Positions 2,206 through 63,912 of a DNA stretch of 64,000 bases are shown here, in pieces (the first letter of the stretch is position 1; every line of letters begins with the position of its first letter). Below the pieces are notes generated by a model, which was not told where the DNA came from, made no database searches, and worked only from the letters and a program-made list of their open reading frames with translations. A program made the translations under genes and the position numbers. This stretch comes from Sphyrna mokarran (Eukaryota), in assembly GCA_024679065.1 (NCBI GenBank), contig JAGIQG010000015.1, positions 33,976,001-34,040,000 of the forward strand, in the 5' to 3' direction.

Positions 2206-2261
2206 GTGAGTAATGCTTTGGTTTTTTCTTGTGGTTTGCATTCTATAAACTCCACGTATAG

Positions 2262-2692
2262 ATGACATTGGTCCGCCTTGTTATTTAACGAGGGGCATAC
2301 ACGCAATGGGTCATGAGGACTGTTCTTGGATCTTTTGAGAGTATCCTACTGCTTCACATTGTTAGTGTATGCTTGACCTGGACGATCTCATGGGCAACAC
2401 GACAGCTCAGTGACTATCGCTGTGCTGTGCAGATACGTGGATTTGGGCCTGTCTGTCAGAGTTTGCACATTCTCCCTTTGCTTGTGTGGGTTTTCTCCAG
2501 GAGCTCCAGTTTCCTCCCACATCCCAAAGATGTGCTCTTAGGCTAATTGGCAAAACAAATTCTCCCTAAATTGTCTCAAATTTGGTTTTTAATCCATAGA
2601 TCTATAAACGTGGGTAGAGGTGGGAACATCGGGATGGCAGTGTGGGCTCGTTGGGCCGAAGGGCCTGTTTCCTGTGCTGTTTTGTTCTTTGT
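2262..2692 (+). mobile_element. 5'-truncated copy of the V-domain-bearing CR1 3'UTR
   Basis: colinear with 51770-52215 (gtcc.ccttgtt...gtgtatgctt..ctggac.atct.atgggcaaca.gacagctcag...V-domain...gggccgaagggcctgtttcctgtgctg); no tRNA head. Confidence 0.75.
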
Positions 2693-7625: not shown

Positions 7626-8494
7626 CTCATAGTTCAAACTGAATTTTAACCATTAAACCATCCCAGAGATTTAAGATTATGTCAAAGAATAGTTCAGAGT
7701 CCACATTGGTAATATTTTTAAATTTAAGCCAGTTGACCAGAAATAAAGTTAGAACCCTATTGAACTTTGCATAAATCGACAATTCAAATACTCAGAACAG
7801 TTTCTGCTGTTAAATTATTATCCTGTGTAGTCCAAGTCCCTATAGTAATAACTCAAAAGCAACATTCCTCCAGTTATGTATCCCCATATTCCTATTCAAG
7901 CCACTCATGGCAGATACATGTTCACACATGGACAATGCCCTGTAAACCATGATGATTTTTAGCCTTTCTAGTTGTTTCCCTTATTGCCGCAGTTAATGGA
8001 AATCATTAAACTCTAGCTCTTCACTAATTCTAATATATTTAGAAAGTGATGAGAAATACTGTCAACATCTCAAAGTCGTTCTCCCTTCATTATCCTGCAA
8101 GAACTAAACACTTAACTATCAGTCATCCTCCATCTGCAGCCACTCCATTCCATTTGAAGAGCTAAAAACAATTCCTTTCTGCAGAATCAATTTCAACAAA
8201 AGCTTCAGTTATTTAATCTTTCAAACCTTGTCCCTTTTAAATGGCCTTCTAAATTATACATTACATTGCATAACACAGTGAAAGTAGATTTTTAAAACAC
8301 CCTAAAATTAGACCCCCAACACTCCTACTCAAAAAATGGTAAAATCATCAAGCTTACAGGGCTTTGGTTCAACATAAGAGGCATGTTATTTCTGCAATCT
8401 AAATCAATAATTAGTGACCACATATTGCCATGACTTTGAGTATATTTTTAATTACAAAGATCCAATTCAGATTTCTGAATCACACTTTGTTCTT

Positions 8495-8736
8495 TGTGCA
8501 TTCGCCCCGTGCTTGCGTGGGTTTTCTCCAGGAGCTCCAGTTTCCTCCCACATCCCAAAGATGTGCTCTTAGGCTAATTGGCAAAACAAATTCTCCCTAA
8601 CTTGTCTCAAATTTGGTTTTTAATCCATAGATCTATAAACATGGACAAGGATCGCGGGTAGAGGTGGGAACATCAGGGTGGCGGCACGGGCTCGTTGGGC
8701 CAAAGGGCCTGTTTCCCATGCTGTTTTTTTCTTTGC
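8495..8736 (+). mobile_element. short copy of the V-domain-bearing CR1 3' end
   Basis: about 130 nt almost identical to 2485-2610, then the same gggctcgttgggcc tail. Confidence 0.75.
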
Positions 8737-12124: not shown

Positions 12125-12395
12125 TTTATTTATTTATTAGTGTCATAAGTAGGCTTTCATTAACACTGCAATAAAGTTACTGTGAAAATCCCCTACTCAT
12201 CACATTCTGGCATCTGCTCAGATACACTGAGGGAGAAATTAACATAGACAATGCACCTAACAGCACATGGGAGGAAACCCACACAGACACAGGGAGAATG
12301 TGCAGACTGTGTACTAACAGTCACCCAAGCTGGAATTGAACCTGGGTCCCTGGCACTGTGAGGCAGCAGTGCTAACCATTCTGCCATCATGCTGC
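12125..12395 (-). mobile_element. V-SINE with Rex1-like tail
   Basis: tRNA head, V-domain, tail ttttcacagtaac...cctacttatgacactaataaa. Confidence 0.85.
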
Positions 12396-13314
12396 ACAGT
12401 AATTTTTAGTTTACTGGGACAAATGTACAGAAACATGTGCAAGAACATTTAGCATTGGTACCATTTGAAACAGGTGCAAAATGGATTCAAATGGAAGTGT
12501 TTTTCTTTCATTCATGGGACATGGACGTCACTGGCTGGCCTGTATTTATTGTCCGTTTGTTGTTACCTGAGGGCTTACACCCAGTTTTTCACTTCAGGTA
12601 TGTATTTACAATGTATCAGGAGCAGAAAATGGATGGAAATCATAAAGAGTTGGGAGAACAATAGAGAAGTGTTAGAGTAGAAACAGTTCTTACAGTCTTA
12701 AATAGCTGTACATGACAGTCAAGTTGATTGGTAGCATTTAAAAGCTGGATAGGGGAAAGGACTAAAACATTGCAGGCAAATTAAAGATTCAGAAACCCAA
12801 GTCAATCTTCAGTTAGCTAATGGACTAGCCAGTCCGTAATCCAATTTGATGACTGCAGAAATGGAGATGGTGCTAAATGAGGAATTTGTAATAAGGGTTT
12901 ACCCTCAATATTGCTTCAAAGTGACATCTCTAAGAATCTGCAAATGGTATGTCTGTCAGAGCACGACTTTCTATGATAACCAATGGATGTGCCAATCTTG
13001 TGTTGCATGTACAAACCCATACCACAAAAGAAGTTTATTTAATCCATCTTCCCTGCTTAGACTATCCAATTAGTCCCACTCCTCTGCACTTACAACCCTG
13101 TCATTTTTACCCCTTTAATTATTTATCCAATTCCTTTTTCCAAGCAACTATTCAGTTTACCTTCACCGTCTTTCATGCTGTGCTTTCTAGATCACAACCT
13201 GTTGCATTCTCTCCTCATCTCATAACAACAAACTCTTTCGTTAGTTATTTTGAATCCGTCTTAAATTTTAAATCTACTGATGTGTAGAAGGGAAGGATTG
13301 GGGTGGGATGGTGA

Positions 13315-16070: not shown

Positions 16071-16719
16071 CACAGAACATGTTTTATTTGTTTTGCTTCA
16101 AGGTCTAATATAGTTTAGCAGAACTTCCCTACATTTCAAGAGATAAAACAGTGTTTGTTTTGCTTTTTTCCCTGTGGCTTGTTAACCTGTAGTTAGAGAT
16201 TGAGTGATTAAGGGATTGATGTATTTGTACTCCAAAACAACTTGTTCCTTTGCTGCACCAAGATATGCACTGTCCAAATAACATTGTATTCTTCCTACAA
16301 AAATCTACTATCTTGTATTTTTTTATTTAACTTTACTTGCCAATTATTTGTCCATTCTATGAGTTTATTAATGAGTCCCAGTAATTTCAGTCCTAAGTAA
16401 TAACTACCCTTCACCAATCTCTACCCCCGACCCTCCCCCCACCAGAAACGACAAGTGACCTGGAACAGGAGCATCATTCCAAAGAGAGTGCCCAATGGAG
16501 CAGGAGGGAGGAAGGGCCAGGGTGCTGGAAAGGAAGTCTCAAAAAGGGATTTACACATAAAGCAGCCCTAAGAAGACAGTCTACTTCAGCGACAAGGACA
16601 GGAATCAAAAACAGGTCTGTTCAGTAAGTTTAAAGGTAAGGAGCAGCTGAAAGACTCCAAATTAAAGAGAGCTAGAGGAGGCAAGATTGAAAACAAAGTG
16701 GGCTTGAGAGAACGCAGAT

Positions 16720-17585
16720 AGTATTGAGGAAGCAGGACTTGGACAGGTTAAGAGACTGGACAAAGAAGTGGCAGATGGAATACAATTTGGAAAAGCATGA
16801 GGTCATGCACTTTGGAAGGAGGAATGAAGGCATAGGTTATTTTCTCAATGGGAAAATGCTTAGGAAATCAGAAACACAAAGAAACTTGAGAGTCATTGTT
16901 CAAGATTCTCTTAAGGTTAACATGCAGGTTCAGTTAGTAATTAGGAAGCATAGAAAGGCAAATGCAACATTAGCATTCGTATTGACAGGGCTAGAATACA
17001 AGGGCAGGGATGTACTTCTGAGGCTGTATAAGGCTCGAGTCAGACGCCATTTGGAGTATTGTGAGCAGTTCTGGGTCTCATACCTAAGAAAAGGTATGCT
17101 GGCTTTGGAAATAGTCCAGAGGAGGTTCACAAGAATGATCCCGAGAATGGACAGCTAGTCACATGAGGAGTGATTGAGGTCTCTGGGTCTGTACTCCTTA
17201 GAATTTAGAAGGGGGGACATTATTGAAACTTACAGGATACTGCGAGGTCTGGATAGAGTGGACATGGAAAGGGGGTTTCACTAGTAGGAAAAATTAGAAC
17301 CAGAGGGCACAATCGCAGGCTAAAGGGAAGATCCTTTAAAACAGAGACAAGGAAGAATTTTTTCGGTCAGACAGTGATGAATCCATGGAACTTCTTGCCA
17401 CAGAAGGCTGTGGAGGCCAGGTCATTGAGTGTCTTTAAGACAGAGATAGATAGGTTCTTGATTAAAAAGGGGGTCAGGGGTTATGGGGAAAAGGTAGGAG
17501 AATGTGGATAAAAAAAAACAGCCATGATTTAATGGCAGAGCAGACTTGATGGGCTGAGTGGCCTAATTCTGCTCCTAATTCTTAT
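16720..17585 (+). mobile_element. CR1 LINE RT C-terminus and 3'UTR
   Basis: DLDRLRDWTKKWQMEYN..VMHFGRRN..LYKARVRRHLEYCEQFW..QRRFTRMIP; same subfamily as 63090-63910. Confidence 0.92.
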
Positions 17586-18890
17586 CCAAGCAGACAGCCA
17601 AAAATTGGCGACTCCTTACTATGAGTGTTTGGATAGTGGTATCGTGCTTGGTATGGCCAAATATCTGAGTATATGGAAGATGAAGCTTGAACTCATGTAA
17701 AGATCCAGGGGGAAGGAACATTAGAAGGAGAGTTTGAAATACTGGAAGTGGATCCTTGTTGAAGGCATCTAAATAAGTGTCACTTGAGAGAATTCTAAGC
17801 AAGTTCTCTGAGTGTGGAGATTGGGATCCCTAATGAGAAAGATAGAATTTCAATAACACCAGTTGACTCACAAGCTTCTGAGGGGAGTAGGAGGGGAGTG
17901 AGAAATTCATCGACTCTGTTTTGGTGGCATCTGTCACTTGGTTTTGGAGTGTGAGGTATCCAACACAGCTTATCAATTGGTTTATATGTTCCATATACAT
18001 ACTGTTAATACTTAAAGTATAAGATCGATATTATAAATTGTCATTTTTACAAATTTGTATGTTTCTGTAAGTGTATAGTAGGAGTGAAAGAATAAGTTGA
18101 TTTGGTGGTGCTTGTATTGAAATCTTTCCAACCAGTTTTATCTAGTGATATATAGTTCATTTTTCTTGTTTAATAAATGTTTTATGTTTTTGTTAAAACT
18201 TCAGCAGCAAACTTCTTTGAGTTTGTTTAGTAACTTCCTTCCCTGGTTTTCATAGAACCATAGAATCCCTACAGTACAGAAAGAGGCCATTCAGCCCATC
18301 AAGTCTACAATGTCACCCAGGCCCTATCCCCTTAACTCTGCATATTTATTCTGCTAATTCCCCGATATTATGAGACTATTTAGCCTGGCCAAATAAGCTA
18401 ACCTGCACATCTTTGGATTGTGCTTGTGTGAGTTTTCTCTGGATGCTCCGGTTTCCTCCCACACCCCAAAAACGTGCTCTTAGGTTGATTGGTACTAAAA
18501 AATTGTTCCTAAATTAGTCTTCCCTCAATCTGGTTATGGTTTTGTTATTGTGAAGTCCAATAGGTGTAGACATACGTCATAGCTAGAAGAGACACTCGCA
18601 ATGTTAAAATAGGCTCATTGGGCCGATGGGCCTGTTTCCCACGCTGTGTTGTTCTTTGAAACCGGAGTACCTGGAGGAAATCTGCAGACATGGGGAAAAC
18701 ATGCAGACTCCACAGAAACAGTCACCCAAGGCTGGAATTGAGCCCAGGTCCCAGGCACTGTATGGTAACACTGCTAACTGCTGTGCCACCGCCTTTTCTT
18801 TAAAAAATTTAAGATTTATCAAACCAGGTTTCATCCTGGGATCTAAGTTGTCCAGCAATAACATCAGCTGGCGTCAAAGCATAACTGCAA
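17586..18890 (+). mobile_element. probable solo-LTR-like repeat interrupted by a SINE
   Basis: T-rich region with AATAAA (18172) continues after the SINE to an LTR-like end '...agcataac'; recognised by texture only. Confidence 0.35.
18250..18793 (-). mobile_element. HE1 SINE split by a plus-strand V-domain CR1 3' fragment (about 18421-18658)
   Basis: SINE reads ...catctttggattgtg | gaaaccggagtacc...; the insert has V-domain plus gggccgatgggcctgtttcc tail. Confidence 0.8.
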
Positions 18891-23252: not shown

Positions 23253-23395
23253 CTGTGCAACACAAGAGCCTCATCAGTATTGAAGAAGAGTTTACATTCT
23301 TAAAAGTGTGTCTGAAATTATACGGTCAGAGCAATCTTGGAGATTAGAAATAATCACATTGCATCTATTCCCATATTGGAGTCGATCAGTATATC

Positions 23396-23680
23396 TAAAG
23401 TTTATTTATTAGCGTCACAAGTAGGCTTACATTAACATTGCAAAGAAGTTACTGTAAAAATCCCTGTAGTTGCCACACTCCAGCATCTACTCAAGCACAC
23501 TGAGGGAGAATTTAGCACCTAACCTCCACATCTCTTGGACTGTGGGAGGAACCCAGAGCACACAGAGGAAATCCGTGTGCAAAAACCCGGGGAGGAAGTG
23601 CAAACTCCACACAGAGTGTGCCCCAGGACCCGCATGCTGTGATGCAGCAGTGTTAACCACTGTGCCACCATGCCACCCTC
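23396..23680 (-). mobile_element. V-SINE with Rex1-like tail in the last AKT1 intron
   Basis: head, V-domain remnant and tail ending aataaataaacttt. Confidence 0.8.
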
Positions 23681-23757
23681 AATAAACAACGTTTGAAAAG
23701 CATTTCTGTCCTTTCATCCTCTCTAATTCAGGCATGTAAAAGTGTAATGTAAAATAC

Positions 23758-30312: not shown

Positions 30313-30764
30313 CTAAGCAGCATTAAAACATTCCCTATCCACACAACAGCAAACATGCTGAAAAGAGTCGGGGGTGGGTGCTTGCTTAAATCTGGTTTCT
30401 GCAATGATAGTCATTTGTAGAAACTGCCTCAAATAATTAATGGTTGAGCCGAAGGGCCTGTTTCCACACTCTCTATCTCTATGTAAATCTCTATGACTCT
30501 TATACAGTAAAGGTCTCAAACTGCAGTTTTAAAAATAAACATCAGCTTCGTTTTCAATTATAAGCAGCAGCCTGGTCCTTGGTCCTTGTGAGGAAGGTTG
30601 GGGGGGTGATCAGAACTGCAGATAAGCAGTCCACTGGTCTACTGCAGGGCTTCCCTAGGGTGCTGTGAGTAATGGGCACCTACAATCACTCCATGATTTA
30701 GTTTGATAAGTTTTCTTTGGTTTAGTTCTAACTGAACTGCACTTTCCCATTTCTTTCTGCCTCC

Positions 30765-31082
30765 TGGGTGGCACGGTGGTTAGCACTGCTGCCTCACAGC
30801 ACGAGGGACCCAGGTTCGATTCCCGGTTTGGATCACTGTCTGTGTGGAGTTTGCACATTCTCCCCATGTTGGAGTGGGTTTCCTCTGGGTGTTTCGGTTT
30901 CTTCCCACAGTCCAAAAGATGTGCTGGTTAGGTGCACTAGCCATGCTAACTTCTCCCTCAGTGTATCCAAACTGGCGCCGGAGTGACTAGGGAATTTTCA
31001 CAGTAACTTCATTACAATGTTAACGTAAGACTACATGTGACATCAATAAAAGAAATAGAGAAAAATAAATAAAATAAAATAA
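30765..31082 (+). mobile_element. full-length V-SINE with Rex1-like tail
   Basis: ggcacggtggttagcactgctgcctcacagc, ggttcgattccc, V-domain, ttttcacagta...gtgacatcaataaa, A-rich end. Confidence 0.9.
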
Positions 31083-32519: not shown

Positions 32520-34350
32520 AGTGTCCTGGGTCAACATTTGTTACTTACCTCTACTCGCCCATGGAGGTAGTTAATGGTGGTCAACAGGATTTATGAACCA
32601 CTGCAACGCATCTGTTGCTACTAGGAAAGAAGTTCCAGGGTTTTGACCCTACTGGCAGTCAAAGAACATCAGTATAGTTCCAAGACAGGATATTGTATGG
32701 CATGGAGGGGAACTTGCAGGTGCCAATGTTCCCACTCAGCTGCTGCCCTTGCTCTTCTAGGTGGTGGAGGTCATGTGTTCAGAAAGTGCTAACTAAGCAG
32801 CCTTGGTAAATTGCTGCAGTGCATTTTTTTAAATGTTACACAGTGCTGCCAGTGTGAATCGTAGAAACCTGCAGTGCAGGAGGAGGCCATTCGGCCCATC
32901 GAGTCTGCACCGACCACAATCTCTCTCCAGACCCTACCCCCATATCCCTACATATTTTACCAGCAAACTTACACATCGCATGACACTAGGGGGTAATTTT
33001 TAGCATGGCCAATCAACATAACCAGCACATCTTTGGACTTTGTGGGAGGAAACCGAAGTACCCAGAGGAAACCCACGCAGACACGAGGAGAATGTGCAAA
33101 CTCCACACAGCCAGTGACCTAAGCCGGGAATCGAACCCAGGGCCCTGGAGCTGTGAAGCAGTAGTGCTAACCATTGTGCTACCATGCCAGTTGTGAATGG
33201 AATGCCAAATAAGCAGGTTACGTTGTCCTGAATGGTGTCCAAATTCTTGAGTGTTGCTGGAGCTACATTCATTCAGGCCAGTGGAGAGCATTCCATCGCA
33301 CTCTTGACTTCAGAATCCTACAGAGTAGAAGAGGCCCTTCAGCGCATTGAATCTGCACTGACACAGACCTGCCCATCTAATCACATTTGCCAGCACTTGG
33401 CCCATAGCATTTTGTAGATGGTGGACAGGCCTTAGGGAGCAAGTGATGAATTATTCACTGCAAAATTCTTAGCATCTGAGAACACAGATATTACTGCTTC
33501 AAAATAAGGAGAAGTCAGTTAGAACAGAGTTGAGGAGGAATTACTTTTCTGAGGGTAGTGAATCTCTGGAATTCTCTGCCCATTGAAGCAGTGGAGGCTA
33601 CCTCGTTGAATATGTTTTAAGTCACAGGGAGATAGATTTCTGATCAATAAGAGAATTAAGGATTATGGGGAGCAGGCGGGTAAGTGGAACTGAACTACTA
33701 TCAGATCAGCCATGATCTTATTGAATGGTGGGGCAGGCTCGAGAGGCTACTCCTGCTCCTATTTCTTATGTTCTTATCTAACCTGCTCTTTTAGCTATGG
33801 TATTTATACGGCTGGTCCAGTTCAGTTTCTGATCAATGGTAACCCCCAGGATGTTGATAGTAGGGGATTTAACAATGGTAATATAATTGAATGTCAAGAG
33901 GTGATAGTTAGACTCTCTCTTGTTGGAGATGACCAGTACCTGGGACTTGTGTAGCACAAATGTTAACTGCTACTTATTAGTCCAAACCTGAATGTTGTTC
34001 AGATCTTACTACATGTAGATACTGACTGTTTCAGTATCTGAGGAGTTGTAAATGGCATCAAACACTGTGTAAGTCATCAACAAACATCCCCTCTGACCTT
34101 AGGATGGAGGATAGGTCATTGATGAAGCAGCTGGAGATGGTTAGGGCTAAAGCCTACCCTGAGGAACTCCTGCAATGTTGTCCTGAGGCTGAGAAGTCTG
34201 ACCTCCCACAACCACAGCCACCCCCCTTTGAGCCAGGTGTGACTCCAACAAGTGAGTTTTCCCCGTTTCCCACCAACTTCAATTCTGCTAGGGGTCCTAA
34301 TTGCCACTCAGACAATCTCTGCCTTGATGACAAGGGCAAGTGCGCTCAAC
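32520..34350 (-). mobile_element. CR1-Zenon-like LINE fragment with nested HE1 SINE (32860-33188) and CR1 piece (33520-33778, +)
   Basis: APATLKNLDTIQD and 'ctcaggacaacattgcaggagttcctcagggtag' (GVPQG) remnants. Confidence 0.7.
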
Positions 34351-41068: not shown

Positions 41069-41774
41069 ATGTTAAAATGTATGTTACGTGGCCTCTCTCA
41101 AAATACAAAATCAAGCAAGGTAGGATTCGGAAAAGAAGGTCCAAGAATCAACTTAGGCCTAGTATTGATAATGACGTCAATTCTGACAGAGTCATAGAGG
41201 TTTACAGCATGGAAACAGGCCCGTTGGCCCAACTTGTCCATGCTGCCCTTTTTTTTAAAAAGCCAGTCCCAATTGCCTGCATTTGGCCCATATCCCTGCA
41301 ACATGTGGTCACTTTGTGCTATCGCAGCCAGATCAGAAAAAAAGGTCAATTCCTTTCTCTCAATCTAAAACTCTGAGATCCACCATTTCAAATCTTAACG
41401 CACTTCAGGTCCTTTCCGCATGGTGGAATCAAATGTCAGGAACTTGAAATTTCTTCCAGAACAAACGTTCAGCAATTCTGCATCACCATGTCAAGCAAGC
41501 TGCTTTCACCATCAACAAGAATGGACAGTAGAAAAATACGAGATTCAATTCAGAATTCAAGAAGTGCACTTCAAAAGTCAAAAAAAAGATACACTTTTCA
41601 AAACCCCATTTAAATGTTTTGTTTTAAGAGTATCCTTAATATGAACGAGAGAGAGAGAGACTGTTTAAATTAAAAAGTGTAATTTTTCAAAACTTATTAT
41701 TAGTCACAAATTGGATGCATGCGTGAACTGAGACAAAAGAATGGGTAATTGATATTGACTGAGTGAGTACCTAC

Positions 41775-50839: not shown

Positions 50840-52428
50840 AAAGTTTAACTTTATTTATTAGCGTCACAAGTAGGTTTACATTAACACTGCAATGCGGTTA
50901 CTGTGAAAATCCTCCTAGTCGCCACATTCTGGCAGCTCTTCCGGATTTAATCCGGATAAATGCGAGGTGATGCATTTTGGCCGGAATAATGTAGAGGGGA
51001 GTTATAGGATAAAAGGTAAAACTATCCAGAGTATAAGAGATGCAGAGAGACCTGGGGGTGCAAGTTCACAAGTCTCTGAAGGTGTCAGTACAGGTGGAGA
51101 ATGTGGTAAAAAAAGCATATGGTATGTTAGCCTTCATAGGAAGGGGTATAGAATACAAGAGTAGGAGTCTGATGTTGCAGGTGTATAGAACGTTGGTTAG
51201 GCCTCATCTGGAGTACTGCGTCCAGTTCTGGTCGCCGTACTACAGGAAGGATGTAGAGGCCCTGGAGAGAGTGCAGAGGAGATTTACCAGGATGCTGCCT
51301 GGTATGGAAGGGCTGTCTTACGAGGAAAGATTGAAAACACTGGGGTTGTTTTCCCTTGAAAGACGTCGGCTGAGAGGGGATCTTTTAGAGGTATATAAGA
51401 TTATGAGGGGTATAGATAGAGTAAATGGTGGTAAGCTTTTTCCACCATTAGAAATGGATAGAACGAGGGGTCACGGGCTCAGGGTGAGGGGGGCTACGTA
51501 TAAGACGAATATTAGAGGCCAGTTTTTCACACAAAGGGTAGTGGGGGTGTGGAATGCACTGCCGAGTAAGGTGGTGGGAGCAGGCACGCTAGGGTTGTTT
51601 AAGGGTCTCTTGGACAGCCACATGAGCGGTCTGCAGATAGAGGGATATAGCAGGACTGTTTGAATATCGGGAGGACCAAATAGTAGTAGACTATCTTTTA
51701 GTTTCGTCTCAGGAATGTCTTAGTTTTTTTTAGCATGTTTAATTAAGTCTTATTTGTTTCCGCAGGCAATTCAGTCCACCTTGTTGACCAACAAGGGGCA
51801 TGCATGCGGCATGTCATGCGAGAGCTGCTCTTGGAGGTTGCTTCAGGAGTTGCCTAGTGCTTCACGTCGTCAGTGTATGCTTAAACTGGACCATCTGATG
51901 GGCAACATGACAGCTCAGAGACTATCACTGTTGCTGTGCTGACACATGGATTTGGGCCTGTGTCTGCAGGAGTTCGCGGGTTCTCCCCGTGGTTGCGTGG
52001 GTTTCCTCCGGGTGCTCCGGTTTCCTCCCACATCCCAAAAATGTGCTCTTAGGCTGGTTGGGTAACAAATTGTCTCTATATTGGTCCCTATATGGGAATC
52101 TTCAACAATAGGCATAGCCTAAAGTCAAGGATATGTCATTAAGATGTTAGGACGGCGGCGTGGGCTCGTTGGGCCGAAGGGCCTGTTTCCTGTGCTGTGT
52201 TGCTCTTTGTTCTTTGTTCTTCAGGTCCGCTGAGGGAGAATTTAGCATGGTCAATACAAACTAACCAGCATGTCTTCCAGACAGTGGGGGGAAACCAGAG
52301 CAACCAAAGGAAACCCACACAGACACAGGGAGAACGTGCAAACTCTGTGCAGACAGCAGCCCAAGCCAGGAATTGAATCCGGGTCCCTGGCACTGTGAGG
52401 CAGCAGGAGTAACCACTGTGCCACCCGG
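50840..52428 (-). mobile_element. V-SINE (Rex1-like tail) split by a LINE insertion: 50840-50941 plus 52220-52428
   Basis: the halves rejoin as gccacattctggcagctc|ttcaggtccgctgagggagaatttagc, matching the intact copy at 15880-15930. Confidence 0.85.
50942..52219 (+). mobile_element. young 5'-truncated CR1/HER1-like LINE with a long V-domain-containing 3'UTR
   Basis: FNPDKCEVMHFG, one frameshift near 51035, then an open 207-aa ORF (RPHLEYCVQFWSP, LERRRLRGDL) to TGA 51663; UTR ends (ctttgtt)n. Confidence 0.92.
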
Positions 52429-52449
52429 ACTTTGTTTTGGTAAATCTCT

Positions 52450-54355
52450 GGTGCCATACTAATGCCAAAAAGCAATCACTTGTAGTGGTAAAATCTACAA
52501 TGAGTGATAAAAGTGGCAATTTTCCTTGAATCAGGTTGAGGCTCCAGCTGGTAGCATCCCCACTTAAAAGTCTCATTTGGAAAATACCTTGGTTGGTGTC
52601 AGCTCTTTAAACATTGGTCCCAGAGTGGGAATTGGGTGACGTTCTCTCACTATCACTTCATTCACCTGTTGCATGTCAGCACGGAGTTTAATGTCACCAT
52701 TTGGTTTAGGCATGACCACAACAGGGTCCACCCACAGTGTTGGTGCTTTAACTGGCTCAACGATGCCTCGATCAATCAGTTCCTCGAACCTTGCTTCCGC
52801 TGTTCCTCTCAGACGAAACATGTTCTGTGTGTAGGCTGAGCTCTGGGCTTCATGTTCTTGTCAATGGTTAATCTCACTTCATTGTTGTGTAACTTCCCAT
52901 TTCCTTGAATCACTGGTCTAAACGCCTGCCTGAGCTTTATATAGGGTTTCAGAGAATGCACTTTCAATCTGATGTGTAACTGCCCCCACTCCGACACCTA
53001 CTCCCTTTCCCACACCCTCCAACACTTGGGCAGCTTCCCTGCTTAGTAGAAGCTTGCCATCTTCCTCAATCACTACAGATTCCGCTTCTTTTTTCCAAAT
53101 CCCAGCTCTCATTTCTGCAAAGAAGCATCCAATAGTTTGAAGAGGGTGTTAGATATGTAAAAATAAAGCTTTGTGGCACATTTTTGAGGTGAGTTCATTG
53201 TCTTCTGTTGCTCCCACAGTGCTCTCTCAGTGACATTACAGTCACTGCCTGAATTTACAATCCTGCTCACTTCACCAATCACTGGACCTTTCTCGTGGTA
53301 GACAGAAAACACATATCCCCGATTGCTATTTGTGTCCTCATTCTCTGTATTCTCTTCGACTCATCTCACAATTGTGCTACTTTCATCTCTCCTTTGCGTG
53401 GTTTGACAGGTTTCCCCCCATTCAGGCTTTACTATTGCACTCCTTGGCAAAACGTTTGCTCTTTACCCACACCTTTTTCAAACATATCCCTCACGGTAGG
53501 GCAGCAGGTATCTTTTCCAAGGTTCCCAAATTATCACATTTTAAACACTCACTCTCAGAATTTCGCTGCTTACACTTCTGGATTCTGCTGCGCTATTCCG
53601 TCAACTTCGACTTTTATCTTGCCAATAGCAGAGATGGGAACCAGTGAAATTTCATGCTGTGAAATTATCCGTCTGCTGCCTCCAATACAGCTGCTATTTT
53701 CAAAACATCATCCAACATTAAGTTACCTCTTTCCAATGGCTTGCACTCCAACTTGCAACGTTGGAGTGCCTGATCCATTATCTAGTTATTCAAATTTGTT
53801 GCAAAATAGTTACATCCCTCCAACGTCTGGACCTCAAAACGGGTCACAAATTCAGTTTCTGTTCCCTTCTGTCTAATTGACAGAAACACGCCTTTGGAAT
53901 GTGATGTTTAGCGTTGCCATGTAATCCTTCAAAAGATTTCACCACACATTCATAATCCACCTCACCTCCTGCCTCAAGCAACATCTTGAAGATTTCCCTC
54001 AGCATCTGAGCAACAATAAGGACCACTGCTGGGCTTTATGCTGGGCACATACCTCAGACTCCTCCAGCCATGTTTTCCAGTTCACATTGACAGTACTGGC
54101 AGCATCCACCAGATCAAACATCTCAATTCCCCAGGTGGCAGACACTACCTGCTCCAGCAAACACCCACGACAGAATCCTAAATATCTCAGTATTCATCCC
54201 TGTCACCAATGTCATATCTCAGGCTAAAGGAATAACATTCAGAGTCACAAATTTAGCTACAAGGGTCACTTTGCTTAATCTGCCATGTTGGCTAACTCCT
54301 GGCCATGTAGTAAGTGATGCTGGTTGACCTGCATCAGTACGCAACGTTTGCTACA
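52450..54355 (-). mobile_element. decayed Ty3/Gypsy LTR retrotransposon (5' LTR, gag, protease, start of RT)
   Basis: LTR TG(54355)...CA(54210) followed by PBS-like tggtgacag; RT start LIDRGIVEPV..WVDPVVVMPKPNGDIKL.ADMQQVN..RERHPIP; many stops. Confidence 0.8.
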
Positions 54356-57723: not shown

Positions 57724-57919
57724 CTGGAAATACAGAGAAGCAGAATCATAATGAATATCAACCACAAAGAATATGCTCAAAACAGGCAATCCTTGAATCT
57801 CCATGGTTTGACTTGCACAGATATCAGAGATATTTTAAAATATGTACAATGGCCTCAAATCCACAGCTTATGAGGGTCTGAGAAAGGCCTTCACAATTTT
57901 CTCTAGTAAACCAACTAAA

Positions 57920-58266
57920 TATAGAATCATAGAACCTACAGTGCAGAAAGAGGCCCTTCGGCCCATGAAGTCTGCACCAGACACAATCCTTCCCAGGCCT
58001 TACCCCCATATCCCCACACATTATACCCACTAATCCCTCGAACCTACACATCCCTGGACATAAGGGGCAATTTCTTAGCATGGCCAATCATCCTAACCCG
58101 CACATCTTTGGACTGTGGGAGGAAACTGGAGTACTTGGGGGAAACCCACACAGACACAAGGAGAATATGCTAACTCCACACAGACAGTGACCAGAGCCAG
58201 GAATTGAAGTCAGGACCCTGGAGCTGTGAAGCAGCAGTGCTAACCACTGTGCTATCATGCTACCCT
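57920..58266 (-). mobile_element. HE1-like V-SINE
   Basis: complete copy with catagaa tail. Confidence 0.9.
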
Positions 58267-58667
58267 AACATCGCGGGGATCAGAGAGGCCTGCCATTTAA
58301 ATAGAATTGTGGGCTGGGACACATCAGGAACTCTCTTCACAAGAAGAACAGAAATCCCTGAATAAGGATCTTGACCACATTATAACAATTAAATAAAATC
58401 TTATTCTTCAAGACTCCAGGCCAGAACAGTGACCAACGCATTAATCCATCCTTAAATGAAGTAGAGCTACTATGTTTAGTTCCTATATAGTTCGTTCAAA
58501 CTTAATTCAGTAACAGTTGCTTAATTTTAGTATCTCACAATGCAGTAAGTTTTGGAAAATAAATCTTTCGAACACATCATGAATAGTCTCGATAAACATC
58601 CTCCTAAATTAATCAGGTTAGTGGCCTTGTAACTTTCCATTTCTAAATGATTGAATCCCATTTTAGT

Positions 58668-62660: not shown

Positions 62661-63094
62661 AATGAAAAATAATGGATAGACTCAGTTTAATATCTCTATC
62701 TAATAACAGCACTAGCAAAAAAAGGGCAGCACCCAAAATAGGACATAAAACGGCCTTCAACAACTCCAGGAATGTTTTCGTTGTCTTATTAGTGGAAACA
62801 TCTTTTGTAATTGAAGATTTCACCTAAACAATAGCTGGTTCCTTAGCAGTCATCAACCTCGCCATATCACCCATATGTTCTTTCATCCCACAGTTCCACG
62901 TTTTGGGAGCATGGCCATGTTTAACTGTCTTAATTAACTAAACATGTGTAACAATTAGGATTTAAAGCCCACGTTGTGGAGGTTTTTAAAAAATTGTTCA
63001 TCCCACGTTTATTTTGTTGTTCACAGCTTTGCTTTCAATCATGCACTATAGGAAATTACCTTCCTCATGATGACAAAATTTCAGTGTTTCCAGG

Positions 63095-63912
63095 TAAGGA
63101 AAGTGGAATACAATATGGAAAAGTTGAGGTTATGCACTTTGGAAGGAGAAATGGACACATGGACTATTTTCTAAATGCGGAAAAGCTTAGGAAATCAGAA
63201 ACACAAAGGGATTTTCAAGTCCTTGTTCAAGATTCTCTTACAGTTAACGTGCGGGTTCAGTCAGCAGTTAGGAAGGCAAGTGCAATGTTAGCATTCGTGT
63301 CGAGAGGGTTGGAATACAAGAATAAGGATGTACTTCTGAGGCTGTATAAGGCTCTGGTCAGACCCCATTTGGAATATTGTGAGCAGTTTTGAGCCCGTAT
63401 CTAAGGAAGGATGTGCTGGCCTTGGAAAGAGCACAGAAAAGGTTCAAAAGAATGATTTCTGGAATGAAGAGCTTGTCATATGAGGAACGGTTGAAGACTC
63501 TGAGCCTTGGAGTTTAGAAGGATAAGGGGAGATCTTATGAAACTCACAGGATACTGAGAGACCTGGAAAGAGTGGATGTGGAGAAGCTGTTTCCACTAGT
63601 AGGAAAATCTAGAACCATATGGCACAATCTCATGCTGAAGGGACAATCCTTTAAAATAGAAATGATGAGGAATTTCTTCAGCCAGAGAGTGGTGAATCTG
63701 TGGAATTCTTGGCTGCAGAAGGCTGTGGAGGCCAGGTCATTGAGCATTCTTAAGACTGGGATAGATAGGTTCTTGATTAATAAAGGGATCAGGGGCTATG
63801 GGGAAAAGGCAGGAGAATGGGGATGAGAAAAACATCAGCCATAATTGAATGGCACAGCAGATTCAATGACCGAGTGACCTAATTCTGCTTCTATATCTTA
63901 TGACCTTATGAT
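63095..63912 (+). mobile_element. CR1 LINE RT C-terminus and 3'UTR
   Basis: EVMHFGRRN...LYKALVRPHLEYCEQF, RNFFSQRVVNLWNS; tail cttatgaccttatg. Confidence 0.92.

What the first reader, a model, noticed from the sequence alone, without database searches (positions are those of the whole stretch)
50942..52219. Young CR1 LINE whose 3'UTR contains a V-SINE core domain, with four copies in the window
Seen: after the RT stop (51663) come about 290 nt of unique UTR, a V-domain block (about 51955-52065, tgtgtctgcaggagttcgcgggttctccccgtggttgcgtgggtttcctccgggtgctccggtttcctcccaca), and then the CR1 tail, with no tRNA head. The same order recurs at 2262-2692, and V-domain plus tail at 8495-8736 and 18421-18658, each truncated at a different 5' point. 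The spacers between V-domain and tail differ, implying several subfamilies. Known: HE1 SINEs take their 3' tail from a CR1-type LINE, and the origin of the V-domain is unclear. Inference: an autonomous LINE lineage captured (or donated) the SINE core and keeps it, the reverse of the usual direction of borrowing.
Basis: partly seen in the sequence, partly recalled or inferred. Interest (0 to 1): 0.75.

Follow-up and report, generated by a model that had tools for sequence, protein, structure and literature searches.

The report
CR1 retrotransposon carrying a captured SINE
In this shark- or ray-like DNA, one jumping-gene (CR1 LINE) copy carries the worn remains of a short parasitic repeat (a V-SINE with its promoter broken) in its tail end, and three shorter copies share that end, which suggests the LINE absorbed its own parasite rather than only lending it a tail.

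Summary
The layout is real. At 50942-52219 a 5'-truncated CR1 ORF2 end is followed by about 240 nt of UTR, a V-domain and a CR1 hairpin tail. The block sits inside one split SINE, with a candidate 5-bp target duplication. Three shorter copies share the 3' part, and the four group apart from 13 ordinary SINE copies (100/99). So a whole SINE 5' part was taken in, and its Pol III promoter was lost before amplification. The direction is SINE to LINE; donation of the V-domain by the LINE is unlikely. Weak point: only one copy links ORF2 to this UTR, so a one-off template-switch chimera is not excluded. Repbase, Dfam, HER1 and the 3' ends of published shark CR1 consensuses could not be seen. Related captures are published (MER6, Ingi-3_AC). 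Verdict: new variant of a known kind, interest 0.5.

The parts
50844..50941 (-). 3' part of the host SINE (HE1-like, AT-rich tail type), split by the insertion
   Evidence: blastn hits 80-86% to other window SINEs; empty-site comparison
50937..50941 (+). left copy of a candidate 5-bp target-site duplication (right copy 52218-52222, overlapping the tail repeat)
   Evidence: junction print-out; short, so not proof
50942..51663 (+). 5'-truncated CR1 ORF2, region C-terminal to the RT core; one frameshift near 51035; stop 4 codons after the conserved Gly-Tyr
51664..51773 (+). proximal 3' UTR, single-copy in the window, T-rich, no CR1 hairpin, origin unknown
   Evidence: nhmmer: self hit only; tail scan negative; no Rfam match near gathering score
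51774..51900 (+). distal 3' UTR shared with the 2271 copy (92/121 identical), origin unknown
51901..51960 (+). degenerate tRNA-derived SINE head; A box eroded, 18-nt deletion removes the T-arm/B box
   Evidence: anchored profile test 37/60 identical + 12 transitions, 0 of 3000 random windows, 0 of 1000 shuffles; box scan
51961..52031 (+). V-domain-like block (boundary set here from the alignment)
   Evidence: 62/71 identical to the window SINE consensus; alignment
52032..52083 (+). post-V SINE body with sites diagnostic for the four LINE-type copies
   Evidence: 35/51 to SINE consensus; 5 diagnostic columns
52084..52149 (+). variable spacer (three variants among four copies)
52150..52219 (+). 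CR1-type 3' stem-loop and short terminal T-rich repeat
   Evidence: alignment A1; consensus fold, 14 pairs, 4 with changes on both sides
52220..52440 (-). 5' part (head, V) of the host SINE
2261..2692 (+). second copy: distal UTR + degenerate head without B box + V + spacer + tail; candidate 5-bp duplication at 2256-2260 / 2691-2695
8493..8736 (+). third copy, starts inside V; same variant as the 2271 copy
18420..18658 (+). fourth copy, starts inside V; inserted antisense inside another HE1-like SINE

Best explanation
A CR1 lineage of an elasmobranch lost its usual short 3' end just after the Gly-Tyr codons of ORF2. It now ends in a long 3' UTR: about 240 nt of unknown origin, then an HE1-like V-SINE from its first base (head, V-domain, post-V body), then a CR1 hairpin tail. 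Most likely route (inferred): a master copy with a damaged 3' end read through, or its reverse transcriptase jumped templates, onto a same-orientation V-SINE, and a CR1-type tail there became the priming signal. The SINE's internal Pol III promoter was then lost, so the SINE part can move only inside the Pol II LINE transcript. Reverse transcription starts at the hairpin, and early stops give the short copies that look like headless SINEs. SHOWN: order of parts in one copy, single block in a split host SINE, head homology, shared B-box loss, one origin of the four 3' parts, staggered 5' ends. INFERRED: family-wide ORF2 linkage, capture route, autonomy, any function of V in the LINE RNA.
For: The whole block interrupts one SINE whose halves resume without loss, with a candidate 5-bp duplication. 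There is no CR1 hairpin between the stop and 52150 and none after 52219; stop-to-hairpin distance is 507 nt, whereas in the three plain CR1 ends in the window the hairpin lies within about 70 nt of the Gly-Tyr codons. Head homology: 0 of 3000 random windows and 0 of 1000 shuffles for 51901-51960; 4 of 3000 and 4 of 1000 for the 2271 copy. An unanchored profile of the two UTR+head stretches finds an intact SINE head as best non-self hit, E 0.0027. A B box with at most 1 mismatch is in 13 of 14 SINE copies and 0 of 2 LINE-type copies that span the head. The four copies are one side of a branch against 13 SINE copies, 100/99. The ORF falls in a distinct CR1 sub-lineage (support 98); the 3 of its 4 database relatives that reach the C-terminus all stop exactly 4 residues after Gly-Tyr, one (93% identical) with the same last residues. 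So the altered ORF end is a lineage trait, not damage to this copy.
Against: Only 1 of 4 copies joins ORF2 to the UTR, and 51664-51773 has no second copy in the window. The 2271 copy does not extend detectably upstream of 51774 and is a different variant (76%). The head is too eroded for an unanchored search with the SINE-head profile to find it (no hit at E up to 50); a plain local alignment was significant for the 51774 copy (13 of 5000 shuffles) but not for the 2271 copy (960 of 5000). The target duplication is 5 bp and overlaps the tail repeat. The tail is closer to the plain CR1 end at 41231 than to the HE1-like tails in the window, so it may be the LINE's own and the exact route is open. 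No DNA downstream of the protein relatives could be seen.
Confidence: 0.7

Rival explanations
1. The 3' part is a non-autonomous retroposon family (a promoter-less V-SINE with a 5' extension, transcribed from flanking DNA). The ORF2 link at 50942 is a one-off template switch from its RNA onto a CR1 mRNA.
For: Only 1 of 4 copies has ORF2. Template-switch chimeras and SINE families transcribed from 5' flanks are described for SINEU and SVA (PMC4494074, passages).
Against: The junction would have to fall at or after the stop codon, and relatives share the same unusual ORF end. The three short copies have staggered 5' ends, as LINE truncations do. The same paper notes that only a minority of copies undergo a switch.
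Confidence: 0.17
2. The 3' part is an ordinary, independent Pol III V-SINE that inserted next to or into an older CR1 copy.
For: A head is present. HE1-like SINEs cover about 8% of the window, so neighbours are common; nested CR1/SINE composites occur in coelacanth (PMC4255032, passages).
Against: B box missing in both copies. 127 nt upstream of the head are shared by two copies. No leftover CR1 tail on either side.
Confidence: 0.05
3. The LINE is the donor: the V-domain arose in a CR1 3' UTR and SINEs took it from there.
For: LINE UTRs have supplied SINE middles (RTE, Vingi; PMC5786205, sections read). The V tree is unrooted.
Against: The LINE carries a tRNA-derived head remnant colinear with V, with a derived deletion. 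V-SINEs reach from vertebrates to cnidarians and bivalves (PMC4824008, passages), far older than this sub-lineage. Other CR1 ends in the window lack V.
Confidence: 0.03
4. The structure is real but already sits, unremarked or described, in HER1, Repbase, Dfam or a de novo shark library. This can be true together with the best explanation.
For: Stuart et al. 2026 list many elasmobranch CR1 consensuses (PMC13343379 supplement).
Against: Their section on element structure does not mention SINE-bearing 3' UTRs ('SINE' occurs once in the text). Kojima's Repbase-wide LINE-SINE comparison reports only RTE and Vingi as sharing SINE middles.
Confidence: 0.35

Closest known systems
HE1 V-SINE / HER1 LINE pair of sharks and rays (table row in PMC3747384; PMC4824008 passage; the original papers were not read)
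   Same: tRNA head + V + CR1-type tail layout; the window holds at least 14 such SINE copies, and the captured part is colinear with them
   Different: Here the SINE part lies downstream of an ORF2, has no B box, has its own diagnostic sites and a different tail variant. Calling the window SINEs 'HE1-like' rests on recall of the layout; no HE1 or HER1 reference sequence was compared.
Chondrichthyan canonical CR1 LINEs (PMC13343379)
   Same: ORF2 C-terminal region 59-72% identical to named shark and ray proteins, up to 93% to unnamed records; conserved 3' hairpin
   Different: 3' UTR about 556 nt instead of under 100; ORF ends 4 residues after Gly-Tyr; SINE-derived block
MER6 MITE (PMC6887750, abstract and passages)
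   Same: A nearly full-length V-SINE captured by another transposon, with loss of its own promoter, then spread by the host element
   Different: Host is a non-autonomous Mariner-derived DNA element; the SINE has no part in its transposition, whereas here it sits just upstream of the priming hairpin
Ingi-3_AC and RTE-1_DAn (PMC5786205)
   Same: LINE consensuses that contain Ceph-SINE-like or tRNA-like sequence; recombination with a SINE proposed for Ingi-3_AC
   Different: Ingi-3_AC: 5' UTR, about 70 nt, other clade; not a head+body block before the tail
Bov-B variants with SINE- or CR1-derived ends (recalled; not confirmed)
   Same: Autonomous LINE that picked up other retroposon sequence at its ends
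   Different: RTE clade; recalled only

Membership tests
CR1 LINE | ORF2 sequence groups with vertebrate CR1 | tested here: met
   Tree with shark, ray, turtle and bird CR1-type proteins; 72% to a full ORF2 with endonuclease + RVT_1
CR1 LINE | 3' stem-loop followed by a short terminal repeat | tested here: met
CR1 LINE | frequent 5' truncation, short or no target duplication | tested here: met
   four different 5' starts; candidate 5-bp duplications
CR1 LINE | full-length element with endonuclease, RT core and ORF1 (autonomy) | not testable with these tools
   copy is truncated at 50942; no host genome available
V-SINE (HE1 type) | V central domain | tested here: met
   62/71 to the window SINE consensus; no published V consensus was compared
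V-SINE (HE1 type) | tRNA-derived head directly 5' of V | tested here: met
   degenerate but significant; ARAGORN and Rfam find no tRNA
V-SINE (HE1 type) | intact A and B boxes for Pol III transcription | tested here: not met
   B box absent in 2 of 2 copies; A box 2 mismatches in one, not found in the other
V-SINE (HE1 type) | element starts at the head | tested here: not met
   two copies share 127 nt upstream of the head
HER1 (catalogued LINE) | identity to the HER1 consensus and its 3' UTR | not testable with these tools
   no Repbase/Dfam; V-SINE paper not held
Bipartite non-autonomous LINE | 5' and 3' LINE ends joined, ORF deleted | tested here: inconclusive
   5' end of this lineage unseen; origin of 51664-51900 unknown. 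PMC5786205 lists ORF-less bipartite forms only for RTE, Ingi, Vingi, R2

The most novel reading that the evidence does not exclude
An autonomous, still fairly recent elasmobranch CR1 lineage has carried a promoter-dead V-SINE in its 3' UTR through several subfamilies, and keeps the V-domain under selection while the Pol III boxes decayed. At sites where the two longest copies agree, V matches the SINE consensus at 54 of 56 and the head at 32 of 51 (p 1e-5). If so, V works in cis at the RNA level for CR1-driven retrotransposition (stability, RNP loading or escape from silencing), and this LINE is a natural construct for testing what a conserved SINE domain does.
Probability: 0.25. Interest if true: 0.75.

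Novelty: new variant of a known kind. Interest (0 to 1): 0.5.

Why it matters
The textbook direction is that SINEs borrow LINE tails. Here a LINE appears to have taken in a SINE and to spread its conserved core. The function of SINE conserved domains is stated as unknown in the papers read (PMC4824008, PMC5499810). A LINE that keeps V without Pol III transcription would separate V's role from the SINE promoter and make it testable by deletion in a retrotransposition assay. Practically, short copies of this lineage would be counted as HE1 SINEs in shark repeat annotation. It does not explain where V came from.

Tried and rejected
Rfam scan of 51600-52450: 4 matches, all far below gathering score, no snRNA/5S/7SL head. 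ARAGORN: 0 tRNAs in the window. Unanchored SINE-head profile missed the LINE-borne head. Extension of the 2271 copy upstream of 51774: score 0, so a T-rich resemblance seen was rejected. Genome-contig scan: 8 loci, 46-55% identical, stray CR1 ends in bacterial assemblies, none similar to 51664-52219. Plasmids and phages: no match. Longer-protein search was crowded by bird CR1 models; the 50%-representative search added no close relative with a full C-terminus. Supplement of PMC13343379: consensus cells are cut at 400 characters, so the 0 hits for a V motif say nothing about 3' ends. Folding: whole UTR z -1.7; head-remnant hairpin z -2.75 in one copy and -1.4 in the other, V fold not consistent between copies, so no structural role is claimed. 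'V is better conserved than its surroundings within the lineage' was tested and is not shown: between the two longest copies V is 56/71, head 51/57, upstream UTR 92/121, spacer 20/52, tail 47/51. Literature searches (listings and abstract starts, with the passages cited) showed no report of a V-SINE in a CR1 3' UTR; most subscription papers are not in that library. Rows left out: SINE 49683 from the head profile (head disrupted), SINE 18790 from the V tree (too short).

Full report
Setting. The window is 40% GC animal DNA rich in CR1 fragments and tRNA-headed SINEs. Among named vertebrate relatives of the ORF, the closest are from sharks and rays (Stegostoma 71%, Hypanus 66%, Leucoraja 63%, Chiloscyllium 62%), so the host is inferred to be an elasmobranch. 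The names HE1 and V-domain are applied from the published layout (PMC3747384 table; PMC4824008 passages) and from recall; no reference sequence was available.

Observation. The ORF runs 51037-51663 (208 aa) and continues upstream to about 50944 across one frameshift. It is ORF2 downstream of the RT core. CpG o/e is 0.54 against 0.24-0.27 for the other two CR1 ORF copies and the window, so it is relatively young but not intact. Self-BLAST finds the three other copies: 2271-2692 matches from UTR position 51774 to the tail (76%, E 5e-75); 8493-8736 and 18420-18658 start inside V. Spacers fall into three variants. The block 50942-52219 interrupts one minus-strand SINE whose two halves resume without loss, with a candidate 5-bp duplication. 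A scan for the tail core with up to 6 mismatches finds none between the stop and 52150. Stop-to-hairpin distance is 507 nt; in the plain CR1 ends at 17550, 41231 and about 63870 the hairpin lies within about 70 nt of the Gly-Tyr codons.

Correction: there is a head. Aligning the four copies with 14 window SINEs shows that 51901-51960 is colinear with the SINE tRNA head. I built a profile from 13 SINE heads and scored the 90 nt before V, anchored at V, with one free deletion; the null windows got the same freedom. The 50942 copy gives 37/60 identities, 12 transitions, 11 transversions and an 18-nt deletion of the T-arm; 0 of 3000 random windows and 0 of 1000 shuffles score as high. The 2271 copy gives 4 of 3000 and 4 of 1000, with the deletion placed differently by the optimiser. 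In the reverse, unanchored search, a profile of the two UTR+head stretches finds an intact SINE head as best non-self hit (E 0.0027). Against this: the unanchored head profile did not find the remnant, and plain local alignment was significant for one copy only (13 of 5000 versus 960 of 5000). A B box is present in 13 of 14 SINE copies and in neither LINE-type copy. The two remnants are 51/57 identical to each other, so the B box was lost before these variants split.

One origin. On V plus post-V, the four copies form one side of a branch against 13 SINEs (100/99; bootstrap not fully settled; unrooted), with 5 diagnostic columns. Their tails share one variant, closer to the plain CR1 end at 41231 than to the HE1-like tails. 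All 11 tails aligned fit one hairpin, 4 of 14 pairs with changes on both sides. In a 30-sequence protein tree the ORF groups with four unnamed records (support 98); the three that reach the C-terminus stop exactly four residues after Gly-Tyr, as this ORF does, while most other shark and ray CR1s in the alignment run 5-9 residues. This is indirect evidence that the unusual 3' end is a lineage trait.

Mechanism. The simplest account is a CR1 master that lost its short 3' end right after Gly-Tyr and gained about 240 nt of unknown sequence plus a V-SINE from its first base. Read-through into a downstream SINE and template jumping during reverse transcription both predict a SINE complete at its 5' end; the data do not separate them, nor say whether the present hairpin came from the SINE or the LINE. 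With the B box gone, the SINE part needs an upstream promoter, which the LINE supplies. Reverse transcription from the hairpin with early termination gives the short copies. Confidence 0.7. The main rival (0.17) is a non-autonomous family plus a single template switch at 50942, because only 1 of 4 copies carries ORF2. An ordinary SINE beside a LINE (0.05) and LINE as donor of V (0.03) fit poorly.

Is V kept on purpose? At sites where the two longest copies agree, V equals the SINE consensus at 54 of 56 and the head at 32 of 51 (Fisher p 1e-5). This fits selection on V and relaxation or counter-selection on the promoter. It also fits capture of a V-SINE family with a different head, since heads vary among V-SINEs while V does not, or later conversion by abundant SINEs. 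Within the lineage V is no better conserved (56/71) than the head (51/57) or the upstream UTR (92/121). Folding gave nothing consistent. So retention is seen; selection is not shown.

Prior knowledge. Kojima 2018 (PMC5786205; abstract, passages, parts 1 and 3 of 5 of the main section) compared all Repbase LINEs and SINEs and reports only RTE and Vingi as sharing SINE middles. [quoted passage not shown] Luchetti 2019 (PMC6887750; passages) describes MER6, a MITE that captured a nearly full V-SINE which lost its head. Stuart 2026 (PMC13343379; passages, section 15, supplement listing) catalogues elasmobranch CR1s without mention of SINE-bearing UTRs in what I read, but its consensus cells were cut at 400 characters, so the 3' ends were unseen and may bear on novelty. 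PMC5499810: abstract, introduction and methods only. PMC4255032, PMC13295347, PMC4494074: passages. Ogiwara 1999 and 2002 were seen only as references; the 2002 paper is not held. Nine library searches showed no report of this structure, which is weak evidence given the library's gaps and the lack of Repbase and Dfam.

Verdict. Observation partly confirmed, with one correction that fixes the direction of transfer. It works like a CR1 LINE with an extended 3' UTR; its 3' part is SINE-derived but fails V-SINE membership (no B box, does not start at the head). New variant of a known kind. Interest 0.5; 0.75 if genome-wide linkage and selection on V are shown (probability about 0.25).

Noticed in passing
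window 12125-12400(-), 23395-23685(-), 30755-31068(+), 50844-52440(-) versus e.g. 32855-33195(-), 57915-58270(-): The window's V-SINEs have two tail types behind the same head and V: a CR1 hairpin tail and an unrelated AT-rich tail. Three of the second type group together on the V tree (81/92). A local case of SINE tail exchange; partner LINE of the second tail not identified.
   Followed up: partly
window 23395-23685(-): An ordinary SINE copy has an 18-nt deletion of the B box at nearly the same place as the LINE-borne head but does not group with the LINE-type copies; probably an independent deletion between short direct repeats flanking the T-arm.
   Followed up: partly
window 50942-52219 and 18420-18658: 2 of the 4 copies are inserted antisense inside HE1-like SINEs; about 0.04 by chance at 8.3% SINE cover, noticed after the fact.
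   Followed up: partly
window 8480-8500: The left flank of the third copy resembles the element's own terminal T-rich repeat, suggesting microhomology at the target site.
   Followed up: no
window 16691-17587(+), 62952-63900(+), 41190-41310(-): Other CR1 3' ends with short UTRs and different tail variants; the first two belong to another CR1 clade and are degraded.
   Followed up: partly
L001-L006; proteins P0109, P0114: Vertebrate CR1 ends on short contigs in bacterial assemblies, and shark-like CR1 ORF2 proteins named as bacterial: most likely host DNA contamination.
   Followed up: no
window 51911-51941 and 2402-2428: The head remnant can form a re-registered hairpin (z -1.4 and -2.75); a similar hairpin forms in some intact SINE heads.
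   Followed up: partly
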